Source of the DNA: an uncultured Thermodesulfobacteriaceae bacterium
Lineage (GTDB): Bacteria > Desulfobacterota > Dissulfuribacteria > Dissulfuribacterales > UBA3076
Reading direction: 5' to 3'
DNA: 64,000 bases
Assembly (NCBI GenBank): GCA_964646435.1
Contig: CAZYEJ010000002.1
Span: forward strand, 14,897-78,896
Of this stretch, positions 9,850 through 50,538 are shown piece by piece. The position numbers were made by a program, and so were the translations under genes. The notes under the pieces were generated by a model that was not told the origin of the DNA, did not search any database, and saw only the letters and a list, made by a program, of their open reading frames with translations. How positions within the stretch are numbered: the first letter of the stretch is position 1; every line of letters begins with the position of its first letter.

Positions 9850-10575
9850 GTGTACGCCCGGCATAGGCGTGAACTTATGAGGTTAAAGTCCTCTGTACGT
9901 GAACCTTGCTGCCTGATTTTGAGGTTAGCAAAAGTACTAGCCGAAGGCAAGGGCGTCGCTGTGAGGCGGGGTTCGAAGGAAGCCGGAGTACAAAGCTGTG
10001 AGCCGACGAATAGAAATGTCATATAAGGCCGAGTCTCTGGGCAAGGGTCTTGAAAAAAATAAATTGGTGGAATTCGCGTCCAGATTTGCCATAGATTTAG
10101 TCGATCTGATTGAACAAAACCGCAGGCATAACAGTGTTATGTTGAGGATTTTGCGATTGAGGATCGATTAAAGATGTGGTGAAGATGGGATGCGAAAATG
10201 CCAAATTATTTTTTCCCAGGCCCTAAGGCAGCACAACATGTCTAAGCCCTGGATTCACAGGAGATACGGTAAATGGCGCGGATTGTTCACGTTCTTATCC
10301 AGGGAGACCTGTTTTCCATGCGGCATAATGTTGTTTCCAGTGAAACTACCGGCAGGGGCTACCGGTTCCCAAATGTCCCGGCACAGATGATGGAAAACTC
10401 TGCCTCATTTGTGAGATACGAAACAAAGATGAGCAGACAGGAAATGAATAGTGCAGCGTCATGCGAAGTAATTCGTGTGGTGTGAAAGCAGGAGTCAGCA
10501 GAGGCCATAGTAGCCCAACGCCGGGGGTAATGCCACGGACATGGTGAAGGGCCGAACATCAAGGAGAAAAAGAGG
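9850..10575 (+). mobile_element. 5' portion (domains I to about III/IV) of a group II intron, class C-like; no reverse-transcriptase ORF and no domain V/VI
   Basis: It starts 'GTGTACGCCCGGCATAGGCGTG' and contains 'TTCGAAGGAAGCCGGAGTACAAAGC', 'TCATATAAGGCCGAG' and 'GTGAAAGCAGGAGTCAGCAGAGGCCATAGTAGCCC'. From memory, these parallel the Oceanobacillus iheyensis IIC intron. A hairpin at 9814-9829 lies just upstream. The end coordinate is approximate. Confidence 0.55.
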
Positions 10576-18973: not shown

Positions 18974-19160
18974 TTAATTTGAGCGATTAACCTTTAGCGG
19001 TTAGCGGTTAGTTTAATGATTATCGGTCTGCCGCCCTGACAAGTAGGATGTTTTACTATTACAAATTTTTACCCATTTGGTGTTATTTCTAATTAACGTA
19101 ATGCCCGGATTTTTCAAAGCTAAACGCTAATGGCTAACAGCGAATCGCTTAACTTAACGG
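18974..19160 (+). repeat. Repeat family B copy 2 (MITE-like, both inverted ends present) filling the ftsL-ftsI spacer
   Basis: The left end 'ttaatttgagcgattaacctttagcggttagcggttag' and the right end 'ctaaacgctaatggctaacagcgaatcgcttaacttaa' are inverted relative to each other. The core matches 15627-15816. Confidence 0.8.
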
Positions 19161-19172
19161 ATAGAGATCAGA

Positions 19173-20930
19173 ATGAGTTTTCCTTATAAAGATAAAAGAA
19201 TTTTGTTCCTTTTTGCCCTGGCAGGTCTTGTGATTATGGCCACATCGTTTGTTGGTTGCTTTTGGCAGAATAACAATGTCAATAGCGAAGACAACATTGA
19301 TTCGTCCAGGCTTTCTCAACAACGGAGCCATGACTACTATTCCCAGCAAAGCCCCCTGTGCAGGGGCGTAATTCTTGACAGGACAGGAGCGATATTCGCC
19401 GTAAGCCAAAAGACAACCTCTGCCTTAGCAAAACCTTCCAAGTTGCCGCAAGTTGATGATTGGGCACCACGGGTATCAGAAATCCTTGGCCTTGATCCTC
19501 ATGCTGTGACAAAACTGCTGTCGGAGAAACAAGACGTTATCTGTCTAAAAGAAGGCATTTCCTTAAAACAAGGTCTGAGGCTGAAAGACATGCGGCTTAA
19601 AGGAATAGAAATACAGGAAAAATATAAAAGGGTATATCCTTGCGGTCCACTGGCTTCTCCGGTTTTGGGGTTTGTCGATCACGGCGGCAGGGGCCTTGAG
19701 GGAATTGAATACACATATGACAGCCTTTTAAGCCACACTAATGTGTCACAAATTCACGCAGGTGGACAGGAACTTACGCTTACTCTTGGGAAAAATATTC
19801 AGTCATCAGCGGAAAAAGAGCTTGGCAGGCAGATGAAAAGACTTAAGGCAGATAAAGGCTGCCTTGTTATAATAAGTGTTGAAAATGGTGAGATCCTTGC
19901 CTTGGCCAGCAAGCCTTCCTGGGACCCGGAACGTTTTTGGGAACTACCTGCAGCAAACATTACAAATTACTCCCTACAAGATAATGTTGACCCGGTGGTC
20001 CTTGTGCCTCTCTTAAACTGGATGTTTGAACAAAGTGAGCTTCCAAAATCAGAAGATCAGCCTTTGAACAAAATGGAACATAAGTGGAAATGGGAAACTT
20101 TGGATAAAGGTCTGGTCCTATGGAGTCCCTGGACTGAACAGGAACTGAAAGATTTTGTCTCTTATGACGACCGGTCAAAAGACCTCTTGGCTCTGGGATT
20201 TGGTCAGTCTACAGGTATTGACCTTCCGGGTGAAGGCCAGGGCAGCCTGTCTTCAGCCCTGCCAAGGTCACAGAATTGCTTCTTATGCCAAGGTATCGCA
20301 GCCAGTCCGATCCAGATTCTAAGGGCCTTCTCCGCCCTGATAAATGAGAATATATTGGTGACACCACACGTGGCCCTACAAAGTCCTAATGAATTCCTGA
20401 CATCCGAGTCTTCCGTGAAGGATCAAAGACAGGCCAAAATCCCATGGTTAACAGAAGAGCTTATACTTAAATTGCGGAAAAACCTCGCGGTCAGGGGAGG
20501 GCCTTCTCTTGCGAGCATCAGGTGGAATGAACAGTCTGAGCAAATATCCACTCAATTTCCAGCCCAGGTCACTGTCCTTGGATTCTGGCCCGACAAATCA
20601 CCTAAAGTCAGTTATATTGTTTTGCTCGACGGCGTAAAAATTGATCCTCGTGAACGCCGGGGCACTTTAGGGCGAACACTAATAGTAGCAAAACAGGCGG
20701 CACAGGTACCCTTGAAAGACAAATGGCGAACGGTGAAAAGCCAAGAGACCAAAAAAGAACTCTCCAGGATGCCGAATCTTAAGGGAAAATCCATAAGACA
20801 GGCCTTTGATATTCTGCAATCCATAGGCATTTCCACCAAGCTCAAAGGTGTAGGGAGTGTGATCGCACAGAAACCAAGATCAGGAACGCCTCTTAAGGGT
20901 GTGAAGGTCTGCAGTATAACCTGCAAATGA
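19173..20930 (+). CDS. ftsI: Class B penicillin-binding-protein homologue in the FtsI position, with C-terminal PASTA; catalytic motifs absent
   Basis: 585 aa. The pedestal motifs are conserved: 'RGVILDRTGAIFAVS', 'RVYPCGPLASPVLGFV' and 'GLEGIEYTYDSLL'. So are 'GEILALASKPSWDP', 'CQGIAASPIQILRAFSAL' and the PASTA tail. No SxxK, SxN or KTG is found at the aligned positions. Confidence 0.8.
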   Translation: MSFPYKDKRILFLFALAGLVIMATSFVGCFWQNNNVNSEDNIDSSRLSQQRSHDYYSQQSPLCRGVILDRTGAIFAVSQKTTSALAKPSKLPQVDDWAPRVSEILGLDPHAVTKLLSEKQDVICLKEGISLKQGLRLKDMRLKGIEIQEKYKRVYPCGPLASPVLGFVDHGGRGLEGIEYTYDSLLSHTNVSQIHAGGQELTLTLGKNIQSSAEKELGRQMKRLKADKGCLVIISVENGEILALASKPSWDPERFWELPAANITNYSLQDNVDPVVLVPLLNWMFEQSELPKSEDQPLNKMEHKWKWETLDKGLVLWSPWTEQELKDFVSYDDRSKDLLALGFGQSTGIDLPGEGQGSLSSALPRSQNCFLCQGIAASPIQILRAFSALINENILVTPHVALQSPNEFLTSESSVKDQRQAKIPWLTEELILKLRKNLAVRGGPSLASIRWNEQSEQISTQFPAQVTVLGFWPDKSPKVSYIVLLDGVKIDPRERRGTLGRTLIVAKQAAQVPLKDKWRTVKSQETKKELSRMPNLKGKSIRQAFDILQSIGISTKLKGVGSVIAQKPRSGTPLKGVKVCSITCK

Positions 20931-23900
20931 TGTTTGGTAATACACGGCACGAAAGGACATTGCGGGATATGTTAGAAGTGCTGAGACCTGCTGTTTCTAT
21001 ATCACCTGAGTTGGATGACGTAAAAATCAAGGGCATATCCGCAGACTCCAGACAGGTAAAGCAGGGATACATATTTGTGGCAATTCCCGGCACGGAATTT
21101 GATGGAAGACAATTTATCAATGATGCCGTGGAGAAAGGAGCCTCTGCCCTGTTAATGCCAAGCCAAGATGTCCATCGTTACATCAAGACCGTTCCTGGAG
21201 CACTTCCTGTTATGGGAGTGGATGACCCCAGGTTTTCAACCGGTCTTCTGGCAAGTGCCTTTTATGGAAATCCCAGTGAAAAAATGGCCCTCATAGCCAT
21301 TACAGGCACTAATGGTAAGACTACGATCACATATCTTCTGGAAGGCATTTTCAGCAAAGCCGGGCTGAATCCTGGTGTAATCGGGACTGTAAACCAGAGA
21401 CATTGTGGTAAGGAGGTACCTTCTGAGCTCACTACCCCAGGTGCCATAAAACTACAGGAGATTCTGGCCGACATGTCGGAGCAAGGGGCAAAGGCAGTGG
21501 CCTTAGAGGTATCTTCCCACGCCCTTGACCAGCAGAGGATCTCAGGATGCAGTTTCGCAGCGTCTGTTTTTACCAATCTGGGCCGCGATCACCTGGATTA
21601 CCATCAAGACATGGACCAATACTTCCACGCCAAGGTAAAATTGTTTTTGGACTACCCATCTGATACTGCAATCATCAACATTGACGACTTGTATGGAAGG
21701 CGTCTGTGGAAAATAGTGCAAAGAAAAAAAATCAGTTATGGTCTCAGTCCTGAGGCCGATGTAAGACCTGAGTTCCAGTCAATCAATATTGATGGAATAA
21801 CAGGTAAACTTACCACGCCCAAAGGACCTGTCTCCATAAAATCCAGGCTTATAGGTCTGCACAACCTATACAATATCCTTGCAGCAGTGGCGGCTTCAAT
21901 CACCCTTGGGATAGATCCCGACTATATTCAGACCGGCATAGAAACAATAACGCGTATCCCGGGAAGGCTCGATCCTGTGCATACCCCACGGGGAGTGACC
22001 GCCTTTGTAGACTATGCCCATACACCTGACGCCCTTGAAAGTGTCCTGAACTGCCTTATCAGATTAGGGTCCAAGCCTCTGATCTGCGTAATCGGCTGTG
22101 GAGGAGACAGAGACAGGGGCAAGCGTCCTCTCATGGCGCAGGCAGCTGCTTCACTGGCAGATATTGTTGTGCTGACCTCGGATAATCCACGTACTGAAGA
22201 CCCTCTTGCCATACTCGATCAGATGTTGAACGGCCTCAGAGACCTTCCTCCCCATCACCCTGCAACTAAAGCTGAAGTGGAGGTAATTCCAGACAGAAGG
22301 GATGCTATTTTATGGGCAGCAGAACAAGTGAGGCCTGGTGCCTGTCTGCTCGTGGCAGGGAAGGGCCATGAAACCTACCAGATAATCGGCAACAAACGAC
22401 TTGCCTTTGATGACATGGAAATACTGAAAGAGGCATTTGGGGCAGAAGTCAGAGGTCAGAAGTCAGAGGTCAGAGGTCAGAGGTCGGAGTATAAGAGTAA
22501 TAGGTCGAAGTCAGAGAGTCTTGAGGATCAGGGACTTCGATTAAAGGCTTCTCAGGTGGCAAGGGCTATTGGAGCCAGAGTCCTTTCGGGTGATCCGGAT
22601 ACGGCAATCCATGGCATATCAACAGATTCCAGATCAGTAAGAAAAGGAAATATATTCTGGGCACTTTCAGGGGATCGTTTCAATGGCCATAATTTTGTCC
22701 TTGATGCTATAAAAAAAGGGGCCATCGGCGCGGTAGTCAGCTCGACCTTTGACTTTCGAGCTTTGACTTTAAGCCCTCGATCCTGTCCTATCCTGTTGCA
22801 AGTCCAGGATTCGTTAAAGGCCCTGGGAGATTTTGCAGCATGGTATAGGGAATACCTTGGAATCAAGGTGGTTGGCATTACGGGCAGTTGCGGCAAGACC
22901 ACTACAAAAGAACTAATTTTCTCAATCCTGGGGGAAAAATGGAAAGTGGCTAAAACCCCTGGGAATTTTAACAATCTTATCGGACTCCCGCTCAGCCTGC
23001 TTTCGGCCAAATCCGATGATGCATGGGCAGTGCTGGAAATGGGAACAAACCAACCGGGAGAAATACCCAGGCTGTGTGAAATTGCCAAGCCACAAGTGGG
23101 CCTTATTACTACCATACAGCCTGCCCACCTTGTCGGCCTGGGGGACATAAAGCAAGTAGCCAGAGAAAAGTGGGAACTCTGGAGAGCCCTTCCCCAAACA
23201 GGTGTGGCAGTGGTGAACCTTGACGATCCCTTGGTGATGGAAGGGGCCAAAGATCTAACGTGTCAAATAGTGGGCTATTCTCTGACACCTAATCCCCAAT
23301 TCAAAATTCAAAATTCAAAATTCAAAATTGCAATTACCTGCCTGTCCTGGACCCCGAGCGGGCATGGCACTCTGCTGGATCTGGATATTGACGGAAGCAG
23401 ACTCTCTGTTAATCTTTCACTTATAGGAAGGGCAAACGTGCAAAATGCCATTGCAGCCGCAGCTACAGGCCATGCAGTGGGGTTGACGCCGGCCCGGATC
23501 AAGCAAGGGCTGGAGGAAGTAAAACCAATTTCAGGCCGCCTTTTTCTAAAAAATCTTGGACCTGAATGGAGGCTGATAGACGATTCTTATAATGCAAACC
23601 CCGGCTCTATGAGAGCGGCTCTTGAGACTCTCAATCTTTGGGGTAAAGGCGAAAAAAAGATAGCGATCCTGGGAGACATGCTGGAACTCGGAGATGCGGC
23701 CTACGACTTCCATCATGACATTGGACGACTTACAGCCGATACAGGAGTTGATTTTCTGATCTTCGTAGGCGAATTTGCGGATGCTGTTTCCGAAACCGCC
23801 CAAAAGGCCGGTATTTCGCAAAAGGCTATTCGCATCTTCCCCAACACGGAGGATTTGCTTTCCTGGATAGAACCAGCCGCCCTTGACTGCATGCCCTCTC

Positions 23901-23986
23901 CGGCAACCGTACTGGTAAAGGGATCGCGGGCCATAGGCCTTGATAGAGCAGTAGATGCCCTTATCAGGCATCTGGGAGAAGGATAG
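20927..23986 (+). CDS. murE/murF: Fused MurE (meso-DAP-adding ligase) / MurF (D-Ala-D-Ala-adding ligase)
   Basis: One 1019-aa ORF. The MurE part has 'ITGTNGKTT' and 'DNPRTEDP' and ends at about '[10 protein letters not shown]'. The MurF part runs from about '[15 protein letters not shown]' and has '[12 protein letters not shown]'. There is no stop or obvious start between them. Confidence 0.85.
22443..22520 (+). repeat. Tandem heptamer array (GTCAGAG-like, about 11 units) encoding the MurE-MurF linker
   Basis: 'cagaa gtcagag gtcagaa gtcagag gtcagag gtcagag gtcggag tataaga gtaatag gtcgaag tcagaga' translates to '[24 protein letters not shown]'. Confidence 0.85.
23297..23331 (+). repeat. Tandem heptamer array (ATTCAAA x about 4.5) inside murF
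   Basis: 'caattcaaaattcaaaattcaaaattcaaaattgcaa' translates to '[13 protein letters not shown]'. Confidence 0.85.
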
Positions 23987-25071: not shown

Positions 25072-25099
25072 GGAAAGAATTTGGTGATTTGGTAATTGA

Positions 25100-26521
25100 A
25101 TGGAACTGAAGGGCAAAAAAGTAACAATACTGGGCATGGGGATATCCGGCCGGGCGGTTGCCGGATGGATCGTCTCTCAAGGGACACAAGTCATATGCAG
25201 TGATTTGAATCCCCTGAATAAGTGGCCTAAGGGCCTGGCAGGCTGGTGTGATAAAAATGGCGTTGGAGTGGAGACAAAAAAACATAAGGTAGAGACTTGC
25301 CTTTCATCCGACCTGATAGTGGTCAGCCCTGGTGTTCCGCCTGAAATTCCTGCCCTTGAGGCAGCACGCAGATCCAATATCCCTGTGGTTGGAGAACTGG
25401 CCCTTGCGGCATCCTTCTGGAGAGGACCTCTAATCGGCATAACCGGCACAAATGGAAAAACTACTACTACTATGCTTGTGGATGAGATGCTAAAAAAGGC
25501 CAATGTGCCTCATGTAAGGGCAGGGAACATTGGAACACCATTATCCGCGCTCGTTGAAGAACATACCGAGGAAACTATCGCGGTTTTAGAGATTAGCAGC
25601 TTCCAGTTGGATTATTTCCCAAGGACCAGGTATTTTCCTTTTACTCCTCCAAGGTTCAGGACAACAGCATGGCTCAATTTTGCGCCGGACCACCTTGATC
25701 GCTACCAGGACATCAAGAGCTATGGAGAGAGCAAGGCAGTAATCTATGACTTCCAAAGGCCTGAAGATTGGGCCATTCGCAACATGGACGACAAGGGACT
25801 AGAAACGTGGAAGGACAAAGGACGTGCCAGAAGGCTCTACTTCGGGATATGGCACCCCGGAGTTCCCGGAGCCTGGCTGGATACCTCTTTAAAAAAAATC
25901 AAAGTCATGTGGCCTGACAATAAATGGGAGGAATATGACTTAGAAAGCTGGTCCCCAAAGGGTCGACATAATATTGAAAACCTGGCTTGTGCCATACTTA
26001 TTTCACGCCTGGCAGGTGCTGGTGCGGCTGCAGTACAGTCTGTTATCCAAAACTTCAAAGCGGCACATCACAGACTTCAGTGGGTGGCCCAAAATGCGGG
26101 CATCGACTATTATGACGACTCCAAGGCCACCAATGTTGCATCTGTACTTCGCGCAATGGAGTCCATAGATCAGCCAATAGTGCTCATCGTGGGCGGCCGC
26201 GGCAAGGGTGAAGATTATGCTTCCCTGGCCGAGGCCACAAAAAAGGTGCGTATTCGTGGTGCGATTGTTATAGGCGAAGAGGCCAAGGCGTTTGAAAAAA
26301 TCCTAAATAAGGTAATGCCGGTTATCCAGGTGCGTGGAACAAAAAACGGCAAAAAGATTATGAGAAAAGCCGTAATGGAAGCAACGTCCCTGGCTGAGCC
26401 CGGTGATGCCATACTCCTTTCCCCTGCCTGTTCCAGCTTTGATATGTTCAAGAACTATGAAGAACGTGGCATGGCATTTCAGGAGGCAACCAGGGAATTG
26501 GGTGATTGGGTAATTGGGTGA
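25100..26521 (+). CDS. murD: UDP-N-acetylmuramoylalanine--D-glutamate ligase
   Basis: 473 aa with 'ILGMGISGRAVA', '[12 protein letters not shown]' and 'DDSKATN'. Confidence 0.95.
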   Translation: MELKGKKVTILGMGISGRAVAGWIVSQGTQVICSDLNPLNKWPKGLAGWCDKNGVGVETKKHKVETCLSSDLIVVSPGVPPEIPALEAARRSNIPVVGELALAASFWRGPLIGITGTNGKTTTTMLVDEMLKKANVPHVRAGNIGTPLSALVEEHTEETIAVLEISSFQLDYFPRTRYFPFTPPRFRTTAWLNFAPDHLDRYQDIKSYGESKAVIYDFQRPEDWAIRNMDDKGLETWKDKGRARRLYFGIWHPGVPGAWLDTSLKKIKVMWPDNKWEEYDLESWSPKGRHNIENLACAILISRLAGAGAAAVQSVIQNFKAAHHRLQWVAQNAGIDYYDDSKATNVASVLRAMESIDQPIVLIVGGRGKGEDYASLAEATKKVRIRGAIVIGEEAKAFEKILNKVMPVIQVRGTKNGKKIMRKAVMEATSLAEPGDAILLSPACSSFDMFKNYEERGMAFQEATRELGDWVIG

Positions 26522-26533
26522 TTGGGTAATTTT
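26497..26533 (-). repeat. Tandem octamer array (GGTRATTG, the inverse of CAATYACC) spanning the murD 3' end and stop codon
   Basis: 'gaattg ggtgattg ggtaattg ggtgattg ggtaatt'. It encodes 'ELGDWVIG*', so the TGA lies inside a repeat unit. A related 'atttggtgatttggtaattgaatgg' at 25078-25102 contains the murD ATG. Confidence 0.85.
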
Positions 26534-26569
26534 AAGAATGGAATTTTAATTTGAAAATGCAGGCAGATT

Positions 26570-27796
26570 GTGAACTTAATTATGAGTCACGAAATATATA
26601 AACACAAAACAATCACCAAATCACCAAACCACCAAATCACCAGATTAGTGGTGGCTGGTGGTGGCACAGGCGGACACGTGTTCCCCGGAATTGCCGTAGT
26701 TGAGGCCATGGAGTCCCATGGCCGTATAGATGTTATGTGGATAGGCACAGGCCGCCCGGTGGAAAAAAATGCACTTTCAGGACGTAAATGGGATTACCGA
26801 ATTCTCAACACAAGGCCTCTCAGGGGCTCAGGCATTGCAGCAACCATGCGTTCTCTGGCTGGACTTCCTTTCTCCACGATCAGGGCTTGTTCGTGGCTTA
26901 AATCATTCAGGCCTCATGTGGTACTGGGTGTTGGGGGATATGTCTCCGGACCTGCACTTCTTGCAGCGCGAATGTTGCGGATACCTGCCGCCCTCCATGA
27001 GCAGAACCTTATCCCAGGGCTCACAAATCGTTTGGCCTCCAGATTCGCAAAGACAGTGTTTGTGAGTTTTAAAGAAACTGCTAAATACTTTCCCAAAAAC
27101 AGGGTAATTTTTACTGGAAATCCCATACGGAAAAATATTATTCAATCACTCAATCACCAAATCACCAAATCACCAAATCACTCAATCACCAAATCATTCA
27201 ATCTTCTGGTCCTGGGAGGCAGTCAGGGTGCCAGATGCCTGAACAGGCTTGCCGGTTCGGCCATACAGGTTTTGTGGCAATCCGGTTTTCATTTGAAAAT
27301 TATTCACCAAACAGGCAAGCTGGATGAGTCACATGTTGAGAAATTTTATAAGGATGCAAGCATTCCGGCCAAAGTGACCCCATTTATCTCTAACATTGGT
27401 GAATCCTATTCCTGGGCAGACTTGGTTATCTGCCGGGCCGGAGCAGGTACTCTGTCTGAGCTCACAACCTTGGGGAAACCATCGATCCTCATTCCCTATC
27501 CCTGGGCAACGGACAGCCATCAGGATGCCAACGCCAGAGAATTGACTGAAGCCGGGGCTGCCAAATACTTCCTGGAAGAAGAAATCGGTGCTATAAAACT
27601 GGCGGGAGAGATACAGTCTTTGCTGGAGGATCCCCAGCAACTCATCAATATGGGAAAAAATGCTCAAAAACTTGGAAAACCCACGGCAGCTACAGAGATA
27701 GCCTCTACACTGATAGAGATAGCCGGACATACTTTTCCATATTCTGAAACAGAAACTAATTCATTGAAAGGTTCTACAGTACGTAACCATGTATAA
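26570..27796 (+). CDS. murG: Undecaprenyldiphospho-muramoylpentapeptide beta-N-acetylglucosaminyltransferase
   Basis: 408 aa with 'GGGTGGHVFPGIAV', 'VLGGSQGA' and 'RAGAGTLSELT'. The exact start is uncertain (26570 GTG or 26582 ATG). Confidence 0.9.
   Translation: MNLIMSHEIYKHKTITKSPNHQITRLVVAGGGTGGHVFPGIAVVEAMESHGRIDVMWIGTGRPVEKNALSGRKWDYRILNTRPLRGSGIAATMRSLAGLPFSTIRACSWLKSFRPHVVLGVGGYVSGPALLAARMLRIPAALHEQNLIPGLTNRLASRFAKTVFVSFKETAKYFPKNRVIFTGNPIRKNIIQSLNHQITKSPNHSITKSFNLLVLGGSQGARCLNRLAGSAIQVLWQSGFHLKIIHQTGKLDESHVEKFYKDASIPAKVTPFISNIGESYSWADLVICRAGAGTLSELTTLGKPSILIPYPWATDSHQDANARELTEAGAAKYFLEEEIGAIKLAGEIQSLLEDPQQLINMGKNAQKLGKPTAATEIASTLIEIAGHTFPYSETETNSLKGSTVRNHV
26609..26643 (+). repeat. 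Tandem octamer array (AAATCACC x about 4) in the murG 5' coding region
   Basis: 'caatcacc aaatcacc aaaccacc aaatcacc ag' translates to 'ITKSPNHQIT', immediately before the GGGTGGH motif. Confidence 0.85.
27142..27210 (+). repeat. Tandem octamer array ([AC]AATCAC[CT] x about 8) in the murG interdomain linker
   Basis: 'caatcact caatcacc aaatcacc aaatcacc aaatcact caatcacc aaatcatt caatctt' translates to 'QSLNHQITKSPNHSITKSFN', between 'GNPIRKN' and 'LLVLGGSQGA'. Confidence 0.85.
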
Positions 27797-30075: not shown

Positions 30076-30917
30076 AAGTCAGAAGGCCGTCTTCAGAATT
30101 TAGGTCTTCAGTACGTAGCTCCGGCTCGCGGAATAAGTCTGCTAAACCGATGTTTTCAGTATCGTGGCTTATCAATTCTAAAATATTGGTTGGCATAGCC
30201 GTAACGTGCATTGTGCTTGTAGGATTTTTTATGTGTCGGCATTGGGCATGTCAATCTGATCTTTTCAGGGTTTGTCAGGTTCTGGTGAAAGGCTGCGATC
30301 GCGTCACGGAAGAGGAGGTTTTGCAACTGAGCAATGTGACCGCCCAGGACAATCTTTTATCTCTCGATCTGAAATCAATTGCAGCGTCCATAGAGGCGCA
30401 TCCCTGGGTCCATACGGTTAAAGTTAAAAAAAAATTGCCGGATCATCTAATGATTACGATCAAAGAACGTACTCCGGTAGCCCTGTTGAATTCTGACAAA
30501 ATGTATTTGATTGATAAACAAGGTAAAATTATCGATGAACTTTCAACAAAAGACCCAGTCTCTCTTCCCATCATTACCGGGTTTGATCCTAAAAACATAA
30601 AAAATAATCAAATCACCAAATCACCAAATCACCAAATCCAAAAAGTCCTGGAATTAATATCCATGGCAAGCAAAGGCACAAGAACTCTGGGTGTAAACAA
30701 TATTAGCCAAATAGACGCAGCTAAAAAAGATACACTAATACTCTATACATCTGACAGCGGTATTCCTTTTTACTTTGATACTAAAAATCTCAGCACCCAG
30801 TTCAGTGAGGCGGAAAAAATCCTGTATCAACTCTATCGCTCAGGAACATATAAAAAAGTTGCTAAGGTTGATTTGGATTACGGCCCCGGCCAGGCCCTGG
30901 TCAGTCTGAAACATTAG
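30057..30917 (+). CDS. ftsQ: Cell division protein FtsQ (POTRA-containing)
   Basis: 286 aa with a basic N-terminus, one TM, a POTRA-like 'VCQVLVKGCDRVTEEEVL..' and 'HPWVHTVKVKKKLPDHLMITIKER'. It sits in the dcw position. Confidence 0.8.
   Translation: MGYGNMKVRRPSSEFRSSVRSSGSRNKSAKPMFSVSWLINSKILVGIAVTCIVLVGFFMCRHWACQSDLFRVCQVLVKGCDRVTEEEVLQLSNVTAQDNLLSLDLKSIAASIEAHPWVHTVKVKKKLPDHLMITIKERTPVALLNSDKMYLIDKQGKIIDELSTKDPVSLPIITGFDPKNIKNNQITKSPNHQIQKVLELISMASKGTRTLGVNNISQIDAAKKDTLILYTSDSGIPFYFDTKNLSTQFSEAEKILYQLYRSGTYKKVAKVDLDYGPGQALVSLKH
30604..30640 (+). repeat. Tandem octamer array (AAATCACC x about 4) inside ftsQ
   Basis: 'ataatc aaatcacc aaatcacc aaatcacc aaatcca' translates to 'NNQITKSPNHQIQ'. 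Confidence 0.85.
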
Positions 30918-35120: not shown

Positions 35121-35135
35121 TCAACATTTTTTCAT

Positions 35136-35297
35136 GTAACAGTTCATGGGGTTACAACGCCCGTTTTACTGCAAGCCACCGAATTGTAAGCGTTTACAGG
35201 GTGCTGCAGATGCGAGGCGGAGAGTACGCAGACGTACTTCCTGTACTTCAAGTGCCCGACAACAAAGCAGATGCAATGCCCTGTAAACGCTTACTAT
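35136..35297 (+). repeat. Repeat family C copy 1 (about 160 bp, with a 16-bp terminal stem)
   Basis: It aligns to 41718-41880. 'gtaagcgtttacaggg' (35186-35201) pairs with 'ccctgtaaacgcttac' (35279-35294). There is an inner hairpin, 'agtacg-caga-cgtact'. Confidence 0.8.
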
Positions 35298-35301
35298 TTC
35301 A

Positions 35302-36153
35302 TTAAAGGCTTTCTCTGCGAATAGCATCAACTACCCGGAGCACCTGCCTGGTGAGGGCAACATTATGGACCCGCACCAAATCAGCTCCCCTCATGGCTGA
35401 TGCTGCGATCGCACCCAGAGTAGCCACATCACGCTCTCCTGCCTCATTTATTCCGGCTATTGCTCCCAAAAAGGCCTTTCGCGATACACCCACCATGATC
35501 GGCACCCCTAACTCGGTAAACTCCTCCAAGCGATTAATCAATACCAGGTTGTCCTGAAAACTTTTCCCAAATCCAATGCCGGGATCAATCAGCATCTTTT
35601 CCCTTGGAATGCCCTTGCTATTGGCCCAGGCCATGCGTTTTTCCAAAAAGTCCTTGATCTCACCAACCGCATCTTCATAGTGGGGCTCCACCTGCATATC
35701 TCTAGGACTTCCTTTCATATGCATAAGTACAACAGGGGCTTCAAAGGCAGACACCACATCGGCCATTTCGGGATCAAAACGCAGTGCGCTGATATCGTTG
35801 ATAATGTCAGCCCCCTCGTAAAGTGCGGCTTCGGCCACTTCAGCCTTTACAGTATCAACAGATATCGGGCAATCACTGATTTTCCGTATTTCCCTTATGG
35901 CAGGTATCACCCGGCACAATTCTTCTTCCGGAGTAACAGGCTCTGAAAAAGGCCGGGTAGACTCCCCTCCTATGTCCAGGATGTCGGCTCCGGCAGCAAC
36001 CAGCGTGGCGGCCTTCTGCTTAGCCCCTTCCGGAGAAAAGAATTTTCCGCCATCTGAAAATGAATCAGGAGTCACGTTTATGACCCCCATGATATATGTG
36101 CGAGAACCCCAGTGGAATGTATGCTCTTTTATAGCCAAACTGGGGAAAGCCAT
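35302..36153 (-). CDS. folP: Dihydropteroate synthase
   Basis: 283 aa with 'MGVINVTPDSFSDGG' and 'DIGGESTRP'. Confidence 0.92.
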   Translation of the reverse strand: MAFPSLAIKEHTFHWGSRTYIMGVINVTPDSFSDGGKFFSPEGAKQKAATLVAAGADILDIGGESTRPFSEPVTPEEELCRVIPAIREIRKISDCPISVDTVKAEVAEAALYEGADIINDISALRFDPEMADVVSAFEAPVVLMHMKGSPRDMQVEPHYEDAVGEIKDFLEKRMAWANSKGIPREKMLIDPGIGFGKSFQDNLVLINRLEEFTELGVPIMVGVSRKAFLGAIAGINEAGERDVATLGAIAASAMRGADLVRVHNVALTRQVLRVVDAIRRESL

Positions 36154-41717: not shown

Positions 41718-41880
41718 TATAACCGTTCACGGAATTGCAACGCCCGTCTTACCGCACCCGCCGAACTATAAGCGTTTACAGGGTGCTGCAGATGCGAGGC
41801 GGAGGGTACGCAGACGTACTCCCTGTACTTCAAGTGCCCGACAACAAAGCAGATGCGGTGCCCTGTGAACGCTTAGCTTA
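41718..41880 (+). repeat. Repeat family C copy 2
   Basis: It has the same 107-nt core as 35189-35295, with about five substitutions by my alignment. The flanks are more diverged. Confidence 0.8.
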
Positions 41881-41925
41881 TATTTTTATATGGAAGGACC
41901 TACCTGGCCCTGACTATCAAGAACT

Positions 41926-48661: not shown

Positions 48662-48704
48662 AATTGAGGGATTGAGGTGCTTTTTTGATTCTAATCCCTC
48701 AATT
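48662..48704. terminator. Hairpin built from AATTGAGG octamers between convergent genes
   Basis: 'aattgagggatt' (48662-48673) pairs with 'aatccctcaatt' (48693-48704). The loop contains a T6 run. The right arm encodes the kinase C-terminus 'GIEELRD*'. Confidence 0.4.
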
Positions 48705-50538
48705 CCTCAATTCCTAAATTTTTACTCTCAGTGCCTTTCTGCTGGAAAAGCGGGAGCTTGACAATGACTATGGTCTGGCCGTCCTCGGTCCGGATATCGA
48801 TCTTTCCGTGGTTACCTTGCACAAACCGATAAATGATGTTTAAGCCACGGCCACTTACTTCACCTTTTTTGACCTGATCAATTTTTTCCTCTGGTATCTC
48901 TCCTGTATTTTTAATCTCGATACAGGCCAGGGTCTCCTCTATATAGCAGTGCATAGACAGAGCGCCTCCCTGTTTCGGGATGGCATTGACAGCGTTGTTC
49001 ATAAGATTATCCAGTACTCGTTCCAGACCAAACCGCGAACAATAGACTAATATCTCTGCTTCAATTTCCAGAGGCTCTATCCTGATGTATTTGCGCCATG
49101 ATTGCCGAATGGCTTCCTCGTTGAGGCGGAACCGCTCTCCGGCGATCTCACCAAGATCCAGAACTTCTTCCCGGCCCTCCAATCTCATGGCCATGGCCAT
49201 ATCCTGCATACGGACCGTCTCCTTAAAGATGATGTCCAGGTATGTGACCAGCTTGTTCCGTATCCCCTCAAGGTTTTCTGATTCCATTAGATTCCTGGCT
49301 CTGGAAGCAAATCCTGTGATGGCAATCGCCGGATTTTTGAAATCGTGCAGGATGTCGTCCAAGAGCTCTAACCGCAAGGCCTTCATGACTTCTTTTCCAA
49401 AAAAAGTCAGCAAATCAATCTCTTCATTCATAAAGGACGACTTCTGTTCCGTAGCATAAAAAGCCATCAGATAACGAGTGATCCCGTTGACCTTGAGAGG
49501 GATTATCAGGATGGAATAAATGTGATGCTTCTCAACAAATTCCCGCATACCTGAGCTGGTAAACCGACTTTTTTCAGGATCTTTGATCAATAGATAGGCG
49601 GGATCGATCCGCTCAAACGGCCGATCTCCGTATTCCGGCGCCCCGTAGATCGCGGTTTGGAAGTACGGGTGATGGCTCACTGTAAAGGTGTAGCCCAACT
49701 GGTGATACGTTTTGTCCAGGGGATACCCTGCCTCAACACGAATCAACTTCTGGTCCTTGGACACTGAAAACAGAGAACAGCTCTTGACCTGCAGATATGG
49801 CTCAAGCTTGGGGATCAGGTCCATGAACAGGTCCTTCAACTTGATCCCTTCCCGGTTACTCAACTTAATAAAAATCCTGTCTACTATCTTCTCCTTGTGC
49901 GCATTCAGCCTCTGTAAGGCCAGGATCTTCCTTTTGGCCAGGACATAGCTTACGCGGCGGGCCAGGAGCTCGGCATGAATGATCTCAAATGGATCAAACT
50001 CCCGGTTATCCTCCTTGTAATAAATTTGAAGGGAGCCGAGAACGTCTCTTTCCGAACCTGAAAACTTTGGAATTTGAAGAGGGACCGCCAAGCAGGAATG
50101 AAATCCTTTATCTTTCACGATGCTTTTAATCTTAAAGTACGGATCTTCAGGGAGGCTCGATATAGCGATGCTTCTGTTTTCCCGGACCACCCGTCCCGAG
50201 ATGGAATCCTTAGAAGGGATGGCAATTTTACATTCAGCCTCAGAAATTTGATATGTGCCGAGGCAGGTCATGCTCAGGGATTTGGGATCAAAAAGCCTTA
50301 TGGATGCAGCTTCGGCCTTAAGAATATTTGCGATTTTTTCCGCGGCAATCTCAAGGATCTTTTTTTCTTTAAGCCCGGAATCAATCTCAATAATTTCTTC
50401 AACATCGCGGATAATGCCGGAGAGGACTCCAACCAGATACTCCTGCTCGATAGAACGGGCCAGATCCAGACGCTCTGAATGAGTCAGATGCTGTAGCGAT
50501 GGACGGCTTTTGAGAAATTCGAAAAATTTTTCTTTCAT
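48691..50538 (-). CDS. Cytoplasmic GAF-domain sensor histidine kinase
   Basis: 615 aa with two GAF-like regions, an H-box 'ILHDFKNPAIAITGFA', and ATPase motifs 'NLMNNAVNAI' and 'GRGLNIIYRFV'. Confidence 0.8.
   Translation of the reverse strand: MKEKFFEFLKSRPSLQHLTHSERLDLARSIEQEYLVGVLSGIIRDVEEIIEIDSGLKEKKILEIAAEKIANILKAEAASIRLFDPKSLSMTCLGTYQISEAECKIAIPSKDSISGRVVRENRSIAISSLPEDPYFKIKSIVKDKGFHSCLAVPLQIPKFSGSERDVLGSLQIYYKEDNREFDPFEIIHAELLARRVSYVLAKRKILALQRLNAHKEKIVDRIFIKLSNREGIKLKDLFMDLIPKLEPYLQVKSCSLFSVSKDQKLIRVEAGYPLDKTYHQLGYTFTVSHHPYFQTAIYGAPEYGDRPFERIDPAYLLIKDPEKSRFTSSGMREFVEKHHIYSILIIPLKVNGITRYLMAFYATEQKSSFMNEEIDLLTFFGKEVMKALRLELLDDILHDFKNPAIAITGFASRARNLMESENLEGIRNKLVTYLDIIFKETVRMQDMAMAMRLEGREEVLDLGEIAGERFRLNEEAIRQSWRKYIRIEPLEIEAEILVYCSRFGLERVLDNLMNNAVNAIPKQGGALSMHCYIEETLACIEIKNTGEIPEEKIDQVKKGEVSGRGLNIIYRFVQGNHGKIDIRTEDGQTIVIVKLPLFQQKGTESKNLGIEELRD

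What the first reader, a model, noticed from the sequence alone, without database searches (positions are those of the whole stretch)
26609..27210. Two AAATCACC octamer arrays are translated in frame inside murG
An array of about 4 units sits at codons about 14-25. It gives 'TITKSPNHQITR' immediately before the GGGTGGH nucleotide-binding loop. An array of about 8 units gives 'QSLNHQITKSPNHSITKSFN' exactly at the variable linker between the N- and C-domains ('GNPIRKN' ... 'LLVLGGSQGA'). The same octamer occurs in intergenic spacers, so an intergenic-type tandem repeat has invaded an essential ORF. An 8-nt unit is not a multiple of 3. A one- or two-unit slippage would frameshift murG, so copy number must be constrained to in-frame totals. 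Three units give the peptide period NHQITKSP.
Basis: seen in the sequence. Interest (0 to 1): 0.7.

Follow-up and report, generated by a model that had tools for sequence, protein, structure and literature searches.

The report
Translated octamer repeats inside murG
Two runs of an 8-base tandem repeat are read as protein inside the essential cell-wall gene murG of a SEEP-SRB2-type sulfate reducer, in a floppy N-terminal tail and the inter-domain linker, and they differ between strains only by three-unit (24-base) steps; this is a new example of a known kind of dispersed simple-sequence repeat, not a new mechanism.

Summary
Window 26611-26642 holds 4 units and 27144-27203 holds 7.5 units of AATCACCA. 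Both lie in the sense strand of a genuine murG (26570-27796). They encode TITKSPNHQITR just before strand beta1 and the GGGTGGH loop, and QSLNHQITKSPNHSITKSFN in the linker between the two GT28 domains.

The linker array has 5, 8 or 11 units. The N-terminal array has about 1, 4 or 7. A strain 99.1% identical over 21 kb differs by exactly +24 nt in the linker array, but by a single unit in two arrays where frame does not matter.

The sense orientation has no stop codon in any frame and gives the same 8-residue peptide in all three. The antisense orientation has a TGA in every frame and supplies murD's stop codon.

The same octamer sits in frame in many other genes of related contigs (MobA-, KdsB-, DnaE-, PdxA-like, prepilins, an ABC ATPase, FtsQ), almost always at domain borders. 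The best reading is a slippage-prone dispersed repeat tolerated at permissive protein sites and filtered by selection for frame.

The closest precedent is the TAACTGA repeats of Beggiatoaceae. How the repeat disperses, and why it favours 5' ends, remain unexplained.

The parts
26570..27796 (+). murG (UDP-GlcNAc:lipid I GlcNAc transferase, GT28). 408 codons from GTG 26570; there is also an in-frame ATG at 26582.
   Evidence: ORF list. Pfam Glyco_transf_28 at 27-164 and Glyco_tran_28_C at 212-375. PDB 3S2U E = 6.7e-67. AlphaFold model pTM 0.84, matching 3S2U with target-normalised TM 0.92 and rmsd 2.3 A. It is the only murG in the window.
26611..26642 (+). Octamer array 1: AATCACCA AATCACCA AACCACCA AATCACCA (4 units), codons 14-25, peptide TITKSPNHQITR, directly before strand beta1 and the GGGTGGH loop.
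   Evidence: Residues 1-19 have pLDDT below 50 and beta1 is residues 24-29. Relatives have 4 units (most), 7 (L004) or about 1 (L138).
27144..27203 (+). Octamer array 2: 7.5 units with 16- and 24-nt higher-order periodicity, codons 192-211, peptide QSLNHQITKSPNHSITKSFN. This is the linker between the N- and C-terminal GT28 domains.
   Evidence: It falls in the gap between the two Pfam domains. The model shows helix 188-199 then coil 200-209, with pLDDT 76 and 61 for the two ten-residue blocks. Relatives have 5, 8 or 11 units, and a near-identical strain has +24 nt.
26496..26531 (-). The same repeat in the opposite orientation (GGGTGATT / GGGTAATT, 4.5 units). It encodes the last residues of MurD (ELGDWVIG) and supplies its TGA stop at 26519-26521.
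   Evidence: The antisense orientation has a TGA in every frame. Unit number varies by single units among relatives (about 1, 3, 4, 5, 6). It is one unit shorter in the 99.1%-identical strain.
25078..25097 (-). The same repeat in the opposite orientation (2.5 units) in the mraY-murD spacer, ending 2 nt (25098-25099) before the murD ATG at 25100.
   Evidence: It is present at the orthologous place in relatives. In L001 it carries the same nested module as the murG linker array.
30609..30638 (+). The same octamer (3.8 perfect units) in frame in ftsQ, codons 185-194, peptide NQITKSPNHQIQ, within the FtsQ/DivIB C-terminal domain match.
   Evidence: It is present at the orthologous place in relatives and in metagenome contig L062.
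23298..23329 (+). Heptamer array AATTCAA x4.6 in frame in the murF part of the murE-murF ORF. Several relatives carry 5 octamer units (AAATCACC) at the same site.
   Evidence: It is 21 nt (3 heptamers) longer than L013, which has only one unit.
22443..22516 (+). Heptamer array (CAGAGGT / CAGAAGT) in frame, forming the junction of the fused murE-murF ORF (20927-23986).

Best explanation
The two arrays belong to a dispersed family of long simple-sequence repeats (unit AAATCACC) carried by this SEEP-SRB2-type lineage.

Shown:
- The arrays grow and shrink, presumably by replication slippage or unequal recombination.
- In the sense orientation the unit has no stop codon in any frame and encodes the same polar 8-residue period (KSPNHQIT) in all three frames, so it can be absorbed into ORFs.
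- In the antisense orientation it has a TGA in every frame, so it can only end an ORF, as it does for murD.
- In murG the arrays occupy two places where the GT-B fold tolerates arbitrary sequence: the tail before beta1 of the N domain and the linker before beta1 of the C domain.
- Between relatives and strains only 24-nt (three-unit, 8-residue) changes are seen, while arrays where frame does not matter change by single units.

Inferred:
- One- or two-unit slips in murG occur but are lethal and are removed by selection.
- The arrays are tolerated passengers (flexible filler) rather than functional parts of MurG.
- They impose a small mutational hazard on an essential gene.

Not explained: how the same unit reached so many loci.
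For: The arrays are real and exceed chance. MurG identity and fold are intact, with low model confidence only at the tail (residues 1-19 below 50) and the linker (61-76).

The window's linker length equals that of A. baumannii MurG 7D1I, which aligns without gaps. It is 5 residues longer than P. aeruginosa 3S2U.

Lengths from GNP to GGSQ in the window and 13 relatives are 75, 81, 99, 123 and 141 nt. The series 75 -> 99 -> 123 corresponds to 5 -> 8 -> 11 units. Protein linkers in further homologues are 16, 18, 21, 23, 24, 32 or 38 residues. The closest homologue, P0001, has 32 against 24 in the window.

Strain L139 is 99.1% identical over 21.2 kb. Its repeat-associated indels are:
- +24 nt in the murG linker array;
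- -8 nt in the antisense array at the murD end;
- +7 nt in an intergenic heptamer array.
The other indel positions are single bases.

Array 1 has 4 units in most relatives, 7 in L004 and about 1 in L138, with the upstream tail conserved as protein.

The frame logic was checked directly. None of 124 arrays in metagenome contigs lies in a stop-free stretch in the antisense orientation.

In related contigs (GC 0.43-0.52) the same peptide sits just before Pfam profile position 1 of MobA-like, cytidylyltransferase, Mur ligase, PHP (DnaE), prepilin N_methyl and OTCace_N domains. It also sits between ABC_tran and oligo_HPY, and between a Mur ligase and TGT. These are domain borders.

A published precedent shows the same orientation logic, including a MurG with repeat-encoded residues at its end.
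Against: Tolerance alone does not explain why sense arrays are 5'-proximal 34 times but 3'-proximal 3 times.

It also does not explain why the window's five octamer arrays all lie within 5.6 kb of the dcw cluster, with none in the other 58 kb. By my rough scan-statistic estimate the chance of this is about 3e-4.

The arrays have persisted, with units homogenised within each lineage, across relatives down to about 70% MurG identity. That could reflect maintenance by selection.

A nested 35-42-nt module shared by arrays at three unrelated loci points to an active copy-paste process that slippage does not provide.

There are no expression or proteomic data. Metagenome-assembled consensus sequences could hide minority out-of-frame alleles.
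Confidence: 0.7

Rival explanations
1. The arrays are selected. Either array 1 serves as a G-free, structure-poor stretch near the start codon that helps translation initiation (or as a binding site for some factor). Or the linker array gives MurG a tunable, evolvable inter-domain linker.
For: Sense arrays show a strong 5'-proximal bias (34 5'-proximal, 21 internal, 3 3'-proximal). In high-GC contigs the arrays end 1-3 nt before an ATG. The arrays contain no G on the sense strand. They are retained over long divergence with homogenised units. Published TAACTGA repeats are likewise concentrated directly upstream of start codons.
Against: Relative L138 has essentially no array 1, and several others have only decayed copies. 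In-silico deletion of three units, of the antisense array, or of both barely changes the predicted unpaired probability around the murG start (0.42-0.47 across all constructs). Linker lengths of 16 to 38 residues all coexist in otherwise similar MurGs, with no sign of an optimum. The peptide is the same in every frame, so no protein-level selection is needed to explain it.
Confidence: 0.15
2. The arrays form a contingency (phase-variation) switch. Single-unit slippage turns murG off and on, or the arrays promote programmed frameshifting.
For: The unit length is not a multiple of three, which is the hallmark of phase-variable repeats. The arrays do mutate quickly: they account for three of the few indels between two 99.1%-identical strains.
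Against: The window, the 13 related genome loci and L138/L139 all carry an intact murG frame through the arrays they cover, as do the homologous proteins examined. All observed octamer-unit changes are three units. MurG is essential for peptidoglycan synthesis (established knowledge), and no second copy exists in the window. The ORF is continuous, so no frameshift is needed to make the protein.
Confidence: 0.05
3. The arrays act as a cis-regulatory RNA element. The antisense array at the murD end pairs with sense array 1 and encloses the murG ribosome-binding region and start codon in a loop, controlling murG translation.
For: The predicted minimum-free-energy structure of 26485-26660 pairs the two arrays, at -44.3 kcal/mol with a z-score of -2.4. 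In high-GC contigs, 15 of 54 arrays have an inverted partner within 200 nt upstream and 0 of 54 downstream.
Against: The pairing partner is reduced to about one unit in L003, L008 and L013, although L003 and L013 keep a four-unit array 1. Only 3 of 49 arrays in the related GC class have an upstream inverted partner. The z-score is modest: 5 of 200 shuffles fold as well. Predicted start-site accessibility barely changes (0.42-0.47) when either array is removed. This idea also does not address the linker array.
Confidence: 0.05
4. The finding is an artefact. Either the repeats come from misassembly, or array 1 is 5' untranslated sequence because murG really starts at a GTG just before AGGGTGGH.
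For: One gene caller started a relative's murG at MVAGGG (P0032). GTG codons lie two and three codons after array 1.
Against: The arrays are 32-60 nt, shorter than sequencing reads. They recur at orthologous positions in more than 14 independent assemblies. In P0032's own contig the longer ORF (MIKETHRHKTVAKLMVAGGG) conserves the upstream tail. A start at either GTG would remove half or more of beta1. The frame through array 1 is kept in every relative that covers it, and its length changes by 24 nt.
Confidence: 0.03

Closest known systems
TAACTGA heptamer direct repeats of marine Beggiatoaceae (MacGregor 2015, PMC4679880)
   Same: Both are a short unit whose length is not a multiple of three, dispersed at many loci of a genome. 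One orientation has stop codons in all three frames and can only overlap gene ends. The other orientation is translatable and is found at the periphery of proteins, including a MurG with repeat-encoded residues at its very end. Both concentrate next to start codons, and the dispersal mechanism is unknown in both.
   Different: The unit is different (AAATCACC, 8 nt) and the lineage is different (SEEP-SRB2-type Desulfobacterota). TAACTGA repeats are mostly intergenic, and most ORFs that carry them are short hypotheticals. Here most evaluable arrays lie in or abut well-conserved housekeeping genes, one sits in the interior of an essential enzyme, and arrays join neighbouring genes into single ORFs. 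Three-unit step polymorphism between strains is documented here.
Long simple sequence repeats (LSSRs, 5-11-nt units) of prokaryotic genomes (Mrazek et al. 2007, as summarised in PMC4679880 and PMC4692102)
   Same: Both are tandem arrays of 5-11-nt units longer than chance, abundant in a scattered set of non-pathogen lineages, and variable in copy number.
   Different: That survey found that repeats inside coding regions are mainly those whose unit length is a multiple of three. Here 7- and 8-nt units are in frame inside genes, through three-unit totals.
Phase-variable contingency loci (for example tetranucleotide repeats in Haemophilus and Neisseria genes)
   Same: Both are repeats with a unit length not divisible by three inside an ORF near its 5' end, with high indel rates at the repeat.
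   Different: Contingency loci lie in dispensable, mostly surface-related genes, and out-of-frame alleles are common and functional as 'off' states. Here the gene is essential and only in-frame alleles are seen.
G-rich heptamer repeats of Xanthomonas and Nostoc (Rehm et al. 2015, PMC4692102), and cyanobacterial STRR heptamers (the latter from my own knowledge)
   Same: These are also genome-wide families of 7-nt tandem repeats, sometimes arranged as tandemly inverted pairs, with a position bias close to gene starts and ends.
   Different: [quoted passage not shown] AAATCACC is G-free on the sense strand and is frequent in coding regions.

Membership tests
MurG (GT28 glycosyltransferase) | Both GT28 domains, the glycine-rich loops and the GT-B fold are present. 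| tested here: met
   Pfam PF03033 (E = 4.5e-31) and PF04101 (E = 4.7e-42). GGGTGGH and GGSQGA are invariant in 96 homologues. The model matches 3S2U and 1F0K.
Long simple sequence repeat (tandem SSR, 5-11-nt unit) | Head-to-tail copies of a short unit, longer than expected by chance. | tested here: met
   TRF rows at 26611-26642 and 27144-27203. No shuffle reaches the observed counts.
Long simple sequence repeat (tandem SSR, 5-11-nt unit) | Copy-number polymorphism between related genomes. | tested here: met
   5, 8 or 11 units and about 1, 4 or 7 units among relatives. +24 nt, -8 nt and +7 nt between strains 99.1% identical.
TAACTGA-type dispersed direct repeats (Beggiatoaceae) | The unit sequence is TAACTGA. 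| tested here: not met
   The unit is AAATCACC. So this is not a member, only an analogue.
TAACTGA-type dispersed direct repeats (Beggiatoaceae) | One orientation has stops in all three frames; the other is translatable and found at the periphery of proteins. | tested here: met
   Frame translation. 0 of 124 arrays are stop-free in antisense. The murD stop lies in an antisense array. Arrays lie at domain borders.
TAACTGA-type dispersed direct repeats (Beggiatoaceae) | Many copies dispersed through one genome, mostly intergenic and directly upstream of start codons. | tested here: inconclusive
   More than 30 different gene contexts were found in contigs of matching GC, some sharing other window sequences. 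However, no complete genome was censused. Most evaluable arrays lie in or abut ORFs.
Contingency locus (phase-variable SSR) | Out-of-frame ('off') alleles exist alongside in-frame ones. | tested here: not met
   All murG alleles seen are in frame through the arrays they cover. Read-level minority alleles could not be examined.
Contingency locus (phase-variable SSR) | The gene is dispensable, so that switching it off is viable. | not testable with these tools
   MurG is essential in studied bacteria (established knowledge). No second copy exists in the window. The whole genome was not available.
Programmed ribosomal frameshift site | The downstream coding sequence lies in a different frame from the upstream one. 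| tested here: not met
   There is a single continuous 408-codon ORF that aligns to MurG end to end.

The most novel reading that the evidence does not exclude
The octamer arrays may not be passive microsatellites. They may be the footprint of an active, sequence-specific copy-paste process, either a mobile repeat module or array-to-array conversion. Such a process would seed identical units, and a nested CCACACAGAC-type module, at gene 5' ends, linkers and gene junctions. That would create N-terminal extensions, variable linkers and gene fusions (murE-murF, Mpl-TGT). The 5'-proximal copies may also act in translation initiation: they are G-free leader sequence, the unit shares AUCACC with the 16S rRNA 3' tail, and the antisense GGUGAU resembles a Shine-Dalgarno sequence.
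Probability: 0.15. Interest if true: 0.75.

Novelty: new member of a known kind. Interest (0 to 1): 0.45.

Why it matters
This is a clean natural example of how a repeat whose unit length is not divisible by three can live inside an essential gene. It needs a stop-free orientation, a structurally permissive site, and selection that passes only three-unit changes.

It also gives a natural series of MurG linker lengths (16 to 38 residues) that could be used to study domain movement in GT-B enzymes.

The arrays are hypervariable markers for strain typing of SEEP-SRB2, the uncultured partner bacterium of methane-oxidising archaea.

They are a source of annotation errors: miscalled starts, apparent gene fusions, and low-complexity 'hypothetical proteins'.

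The unexplained dispersal and the 5'-end bias touch the old open question of how heptamer and octamer repeat families spread in bacterial genomes.

Tried and rejected
1. RNA pairing between the antisense array at the murD end and array 1. A stem is predicted, but the partner is reduced to about one unit in L003, L008 and L013, and predicted start-site accessibility is unaffected.

2. MraZ-type binding sites. TGGGN recurs in the array at the murD end, but the period is 8 rather than 10 nt. Relatives have TTTGGTGA or TTGAGTGA units without TGGGN. I dropped this idea.

3. Rfam families at gathering threshold. Nothing was found at or near the arrays; the hits were three tRNAs and group II intron fragments elsewhere.

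4. A search of 5.8 billion proteins with (KSPNHQIT)x5, meant to census translated arrays. It returned only 11 short hypothetical proteins at E <= 0.001 and was uninformative for so short and repetitive a query.

5. A literature search for tandem repeats in SEEP-SRB2 found no papers.

6. A second murG copy in the window: none found.

7. Testing whether AAATCACC is more common than other octamers.
Full report
WHAT IS THERE

The window region is a division and cell-wall (dcw) cluster. It contains an ftsI-like gene, a fused murE-murF, mraY, murD, murG, murC, murB, ftsQ, ftsA and ftsZ.

The ORF 26570-27796 is MurG. Both GT28 Pfam domains are present, at residues 27-164 and 212-375. It matches P. 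aeruginosa MurG 3S2U at E = 6.7e-67.

An AlphaFold model built on 96 homologues has pTM 0.84 and mean pLDDT 86. The model superposes on 3S2U with target-normalised TM 0.92 and rmsd 2.3 A.

The closest genomes are metagenome-assembled SEEP-SRB2-type Desulfobacterota, for example isolate E20SeepSRB2 at 91% MurG identity.

CHECK OF THE OBSERVATION

Tandem Repeats Finder reports a period-8 array of 4.0 copies at 26611-26642. It reports a second array at 27144-27203 with periods 8, 16 and 24.

The exact octamer occurs 11 times against 3.2 expected. A two-unit pattern occurs 21 times against 3.1 expected. No shuffle reaches either count.

WHERE THE ARRAYS SIT IN THE PROTEIN

Array 1 lies in an N-terminal tail. 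Model confidence for residues 1-19 is below 50. Strand beta1 (residues 24-29) and the GGGTGGH loop follow directly.

Array 2 lies in the gap between the two Pfam domains. The model shows a helix at 188-199 and a coil at 200-209, with pLDDT 76 and 61 for the two ten-residue blocks. The first strand of the C domain, LLVLGG, and the GGSQGA loop follow.

So both arrays directly precede the first strand of a Rossmann-like domain. In such folds that end of the strand lies far from the ligand-binding loop; this last point is my inference from the known topology.

The window's linker is not unusually long. It aligns without gaps to A. baumannii MurG 7D1I and is only 5 residues longer than 3S2U.

Homologues at 57-59% identity have non-repeat linkers of 16-19 residues. 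That is the same length as the shortest repeat-encoded linkers. For the linker, the repeat replaced ordinary sequence rather than simply adding to it.

IS ARRAY 1 TRANSLATED?

- In all 12 relatives that cover this region, the frame from an upstream GTG or ATG runs through the array.
- Relative L138 (80% MurG identity) has essentially no array. It reads MIKETHRHKT-VAK-LMVAGGG, against the window's ..SHEIYKHKT-ITKSPNHQITR-LVVAGGG. The tail upstream of the array is therefore conserved as protein, and the window differs by 24 nt.
- The only start codons after the array are the two GTG codons for V27 and V28. Starting at either would remove half or more of beta1.

I conclude that array 1 is translated.

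COPY-NUMBER BEHAVIOUR

Linker lengths and unit counts, measured from the GNP codons to the GGSQ codons in the window and 13 related genomes:

| Length (nt) | Octamer units | Note |
|---|---|---|
| 75 | 5 | |
| 81 | 5-6 | a 6-nt non-repeat difference from the 75-nt form |
| 99 | 8 | the window's form |
| 123 | 11 | |
| 141 | 8, interrupted | carries an extra in-frame 42-nt insert holding a second, decamer-like repeat |

Array 1 has 4 units in most relatives, 7 in L004 and about 1 in L138.

The closest protein homologue, P0001 (95-98% identical to the window MurG), has a 32-residue linker against 24 in the window.

P0001's contig, L139, is 99.1% identical to the window over 21.2 kb, with 142 substitutions. 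The indels between the two are:

| Change in L139 | Place |
|---|---|
| +24 nt | murG linker array |
| -8 nt (one unit) | antisense array at the murD end |
| +7 nt (one heptamer) | intergenic array upstream of ftsI |
| a +1/-1 pair | murF |
| one single base | a spacer |

The tandem arrays are therefore the main indel hot spots. The array inside murG moved by three units, while arrays where frame does not matter moved by one. Among more distant relatives the murD-end array likewise takes values of about 1, 3, 4, 5 and 6 units.

ORIENTATION LOGIC

(AAATCACC)n has no stop codon in any frame. Because 8 and 3 share no factor, it encodes the same cyclic peptide KSPNHQIT in all three frames.

The reverse complement (GGTGATTT)n meets a TGA within three units in every frame. 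Accordingly the antisense array at 26496-26531 supplies MurD's last residues and its stop codon. None of 124 arrays recovered from metagenomes lies in a stop-free stretch in the antisense orientation.

THE WIDER FAMILY

Within the window, octamer arrays occur at five places, all between 25078 and 30638: the mraY-murD spacer, the murD end, two in murG, and one in ftsQ. Relatives have arrays at the same places and a further one in murF.

At that murF site the window instead has a heptamer array, which is 21 nt longer than the single-unit state in L013.

In the contigs of matching GC (0.43-0.52), several share other sequences with the window. There the array is in frame in many genes. Pfam places it as follows:
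- immediately before profile position 1 of MobA-like, cytidylyltransferase (KdsB-type), Mur ligase, PHP (DnaE), prepilin N_methyl and OTCace_N domains;
- between ABC_tran and oligo_HPY;
- between a Mur ligase and TGT, which it joins into one ORF.

In several of these genes the next start codon after the array is 8-39 codons downstream, which would remove conserved motifs. So the array must be translated there too.

MOST LIKELY EXPLANATION

The arrays are a slippage-prone dispersed repeat. It is tolerated in ORFs only in its stop-free orientation and only at structurally permissive places. Selection on the essential murG passes only three-unit changes.

I put this at 0.7. Which steps are shown and which are inferred is set out under the best explanation.

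RIVALS

- Phase variation is contradicted by the absence of any out-of-frame murG allele and by the essential role of MurG.
- RNA pairing between the inverted arrays around the murG start is predicted but not conserved. It does not change predicted start-site accessibility.
- An artefact is excluded, because more than 14 independent assemblies show the arrays at orthologous places.
- A selected function cannot be excluded. Sense arrays are 5'-proximal 34 times, internal 21 times and 3'-proximal 3 times. In high-GC contigs they end 1-3 nt before an ATG. They are G-free. The arrays have persisted, with homogenised units, down to about 70% MurG identity.

WHAT REMAINS UNEXPLAINED

Slippage explains growth and shrinkage but not how one unit reached so many loci.

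A 35-42-nt module (TTAGCCACAGACCCACACAGAC...GACATTTC) is nested inside octamer arrays at three unrelated places: the murG linker of five relatives, the mraY-murD spacer of L001, and an unrelated gene in L063. This points to copy-paste between arrays.

I could not run a control scan with other octamers.

COMPARISON WITH WHAT IS KNOWN

The closest described system is the TAACTGA heptamer repeats of marine Beggiatoaceae (PMC4679880). The forward orientation has stops in three frames and overlaps only gene ends. Reverse copies are translated at the periphery of proteins, including the very end of a MurG. The repeats cluster upstream of start codons.

The broader class is the long simple sequence repeats surveyed by Mrazek and colleagues. 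That survey noted that coding repeats are mostly those with unit lengths divisible by three.

The present case is not a member of the TAACTGA family, because the unit differs. It works the same way.

It differs in five respects: the unit, the host lineage, its frequency inside conserved housekeeping genes, its position in the interior of an essential enzyme, and the documented three-unit strain polymorphism.

I found no paper on such repeats in SEEP-SRB2.

VERDICT

It is a new member of a known kind, of moderate interest (0.45). A minority possibility of about 0.15 is that an active dispersal mechanism or a role at gene 5' ends lies behind it.

Noticed in passing
window 20927-23986, junction at 22443-22516: murE and murF form one 1019-codon ORF joined by an in-frame heptamer array (CAGAGGT / CAGAAGT). 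Relatives carry different heptamer units at the same junction (GGTTCAA, GGAGTTC, GAAGGTA / GAAGGTT). All are in frame except L013, whose array is 35 nt (5 units) longer than L006's and breaks the fusion.
   Followed up: partly
window 23298-23329; L001, L003, L004, L006, L009 and L013 at the orthologous murF site: The window has AATTCAA x4.6 in frame in murF. L013 has a single unit (21 nt shorter). Five other relatives carry 5 perfect AAATCACC units at the same site. So one permissive loop hosts different repeats in different relatives.
   Followed up: partly
L001 6607 and 8815(-), L003 6607, L004 6631, L008 1818, L012 354, L063 1513(-): A 35-42-nt module (TTAGCCACAGACCCACACAGAC..GACATTTC, itself decamer-like) is nested inside octamer arrays at three unrelated loci. 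It is translated in frame as ATDPHRPTQTF in the murG linker of five relatives.
   Followed up: partly
loci L019-L137 (metagenome contigs): (AAATCACC)n arrays occur in contigs of GC 0.22-0.69. In high-GC contigs they typically end 1-3 nt before an ATG. 15 of 54 have an inverted GGTGA-type array within 200 nt upstream, and none have one downstream. Overall, sense arrays are 5'-proximal 34 times against 3'-proximal 3 times.
   Followed up: partly
L133 (metagenome contig), ORF residues about 467-508: An Mpl-like Mur ligase and a queuine tRNA-ribosyltransferase (TGT) are joined into one ORF through an octamer array. A second array sits at the ligase's N-terminus, directly before an ATG.
   Followed up: no
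window about 19119-19140, upstream of ftsI (start 19173): A heptamer array (GCTAAAC-type) in the spacer upstream of ftsI differs by exactly one unit from the 99.1%-identical strain L139.
   Followed up: no
window 48693-48720: An AATTCCTC octamer array (3.5 copies) overlaps the stop-codon end of the minus-strand ORF 48691-50538. This is a second case, besides murD, of an array at a gene's 3' end.
   Followed up: no
window 35129-35303 and 41720-41890: Two copies (87% identical) of an intergenic element of about 165 nt with a long internal inverted repeat. The element is also present in metagenome contigs L056 and L091. It has no Rfam match at gathering threshold.
   Followed up: partly
window 9955-10552: Rfam reports group II intron domain D1-D4 fragments (RF02001, RF01998) on the plus strand.
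   Followed up: no
window 26521-26570: murD is followed directly by murG. There is no ftsW gene between them, unlike the usual dcw order. The same holds in relatives L138 and L139.
   Followed up: no
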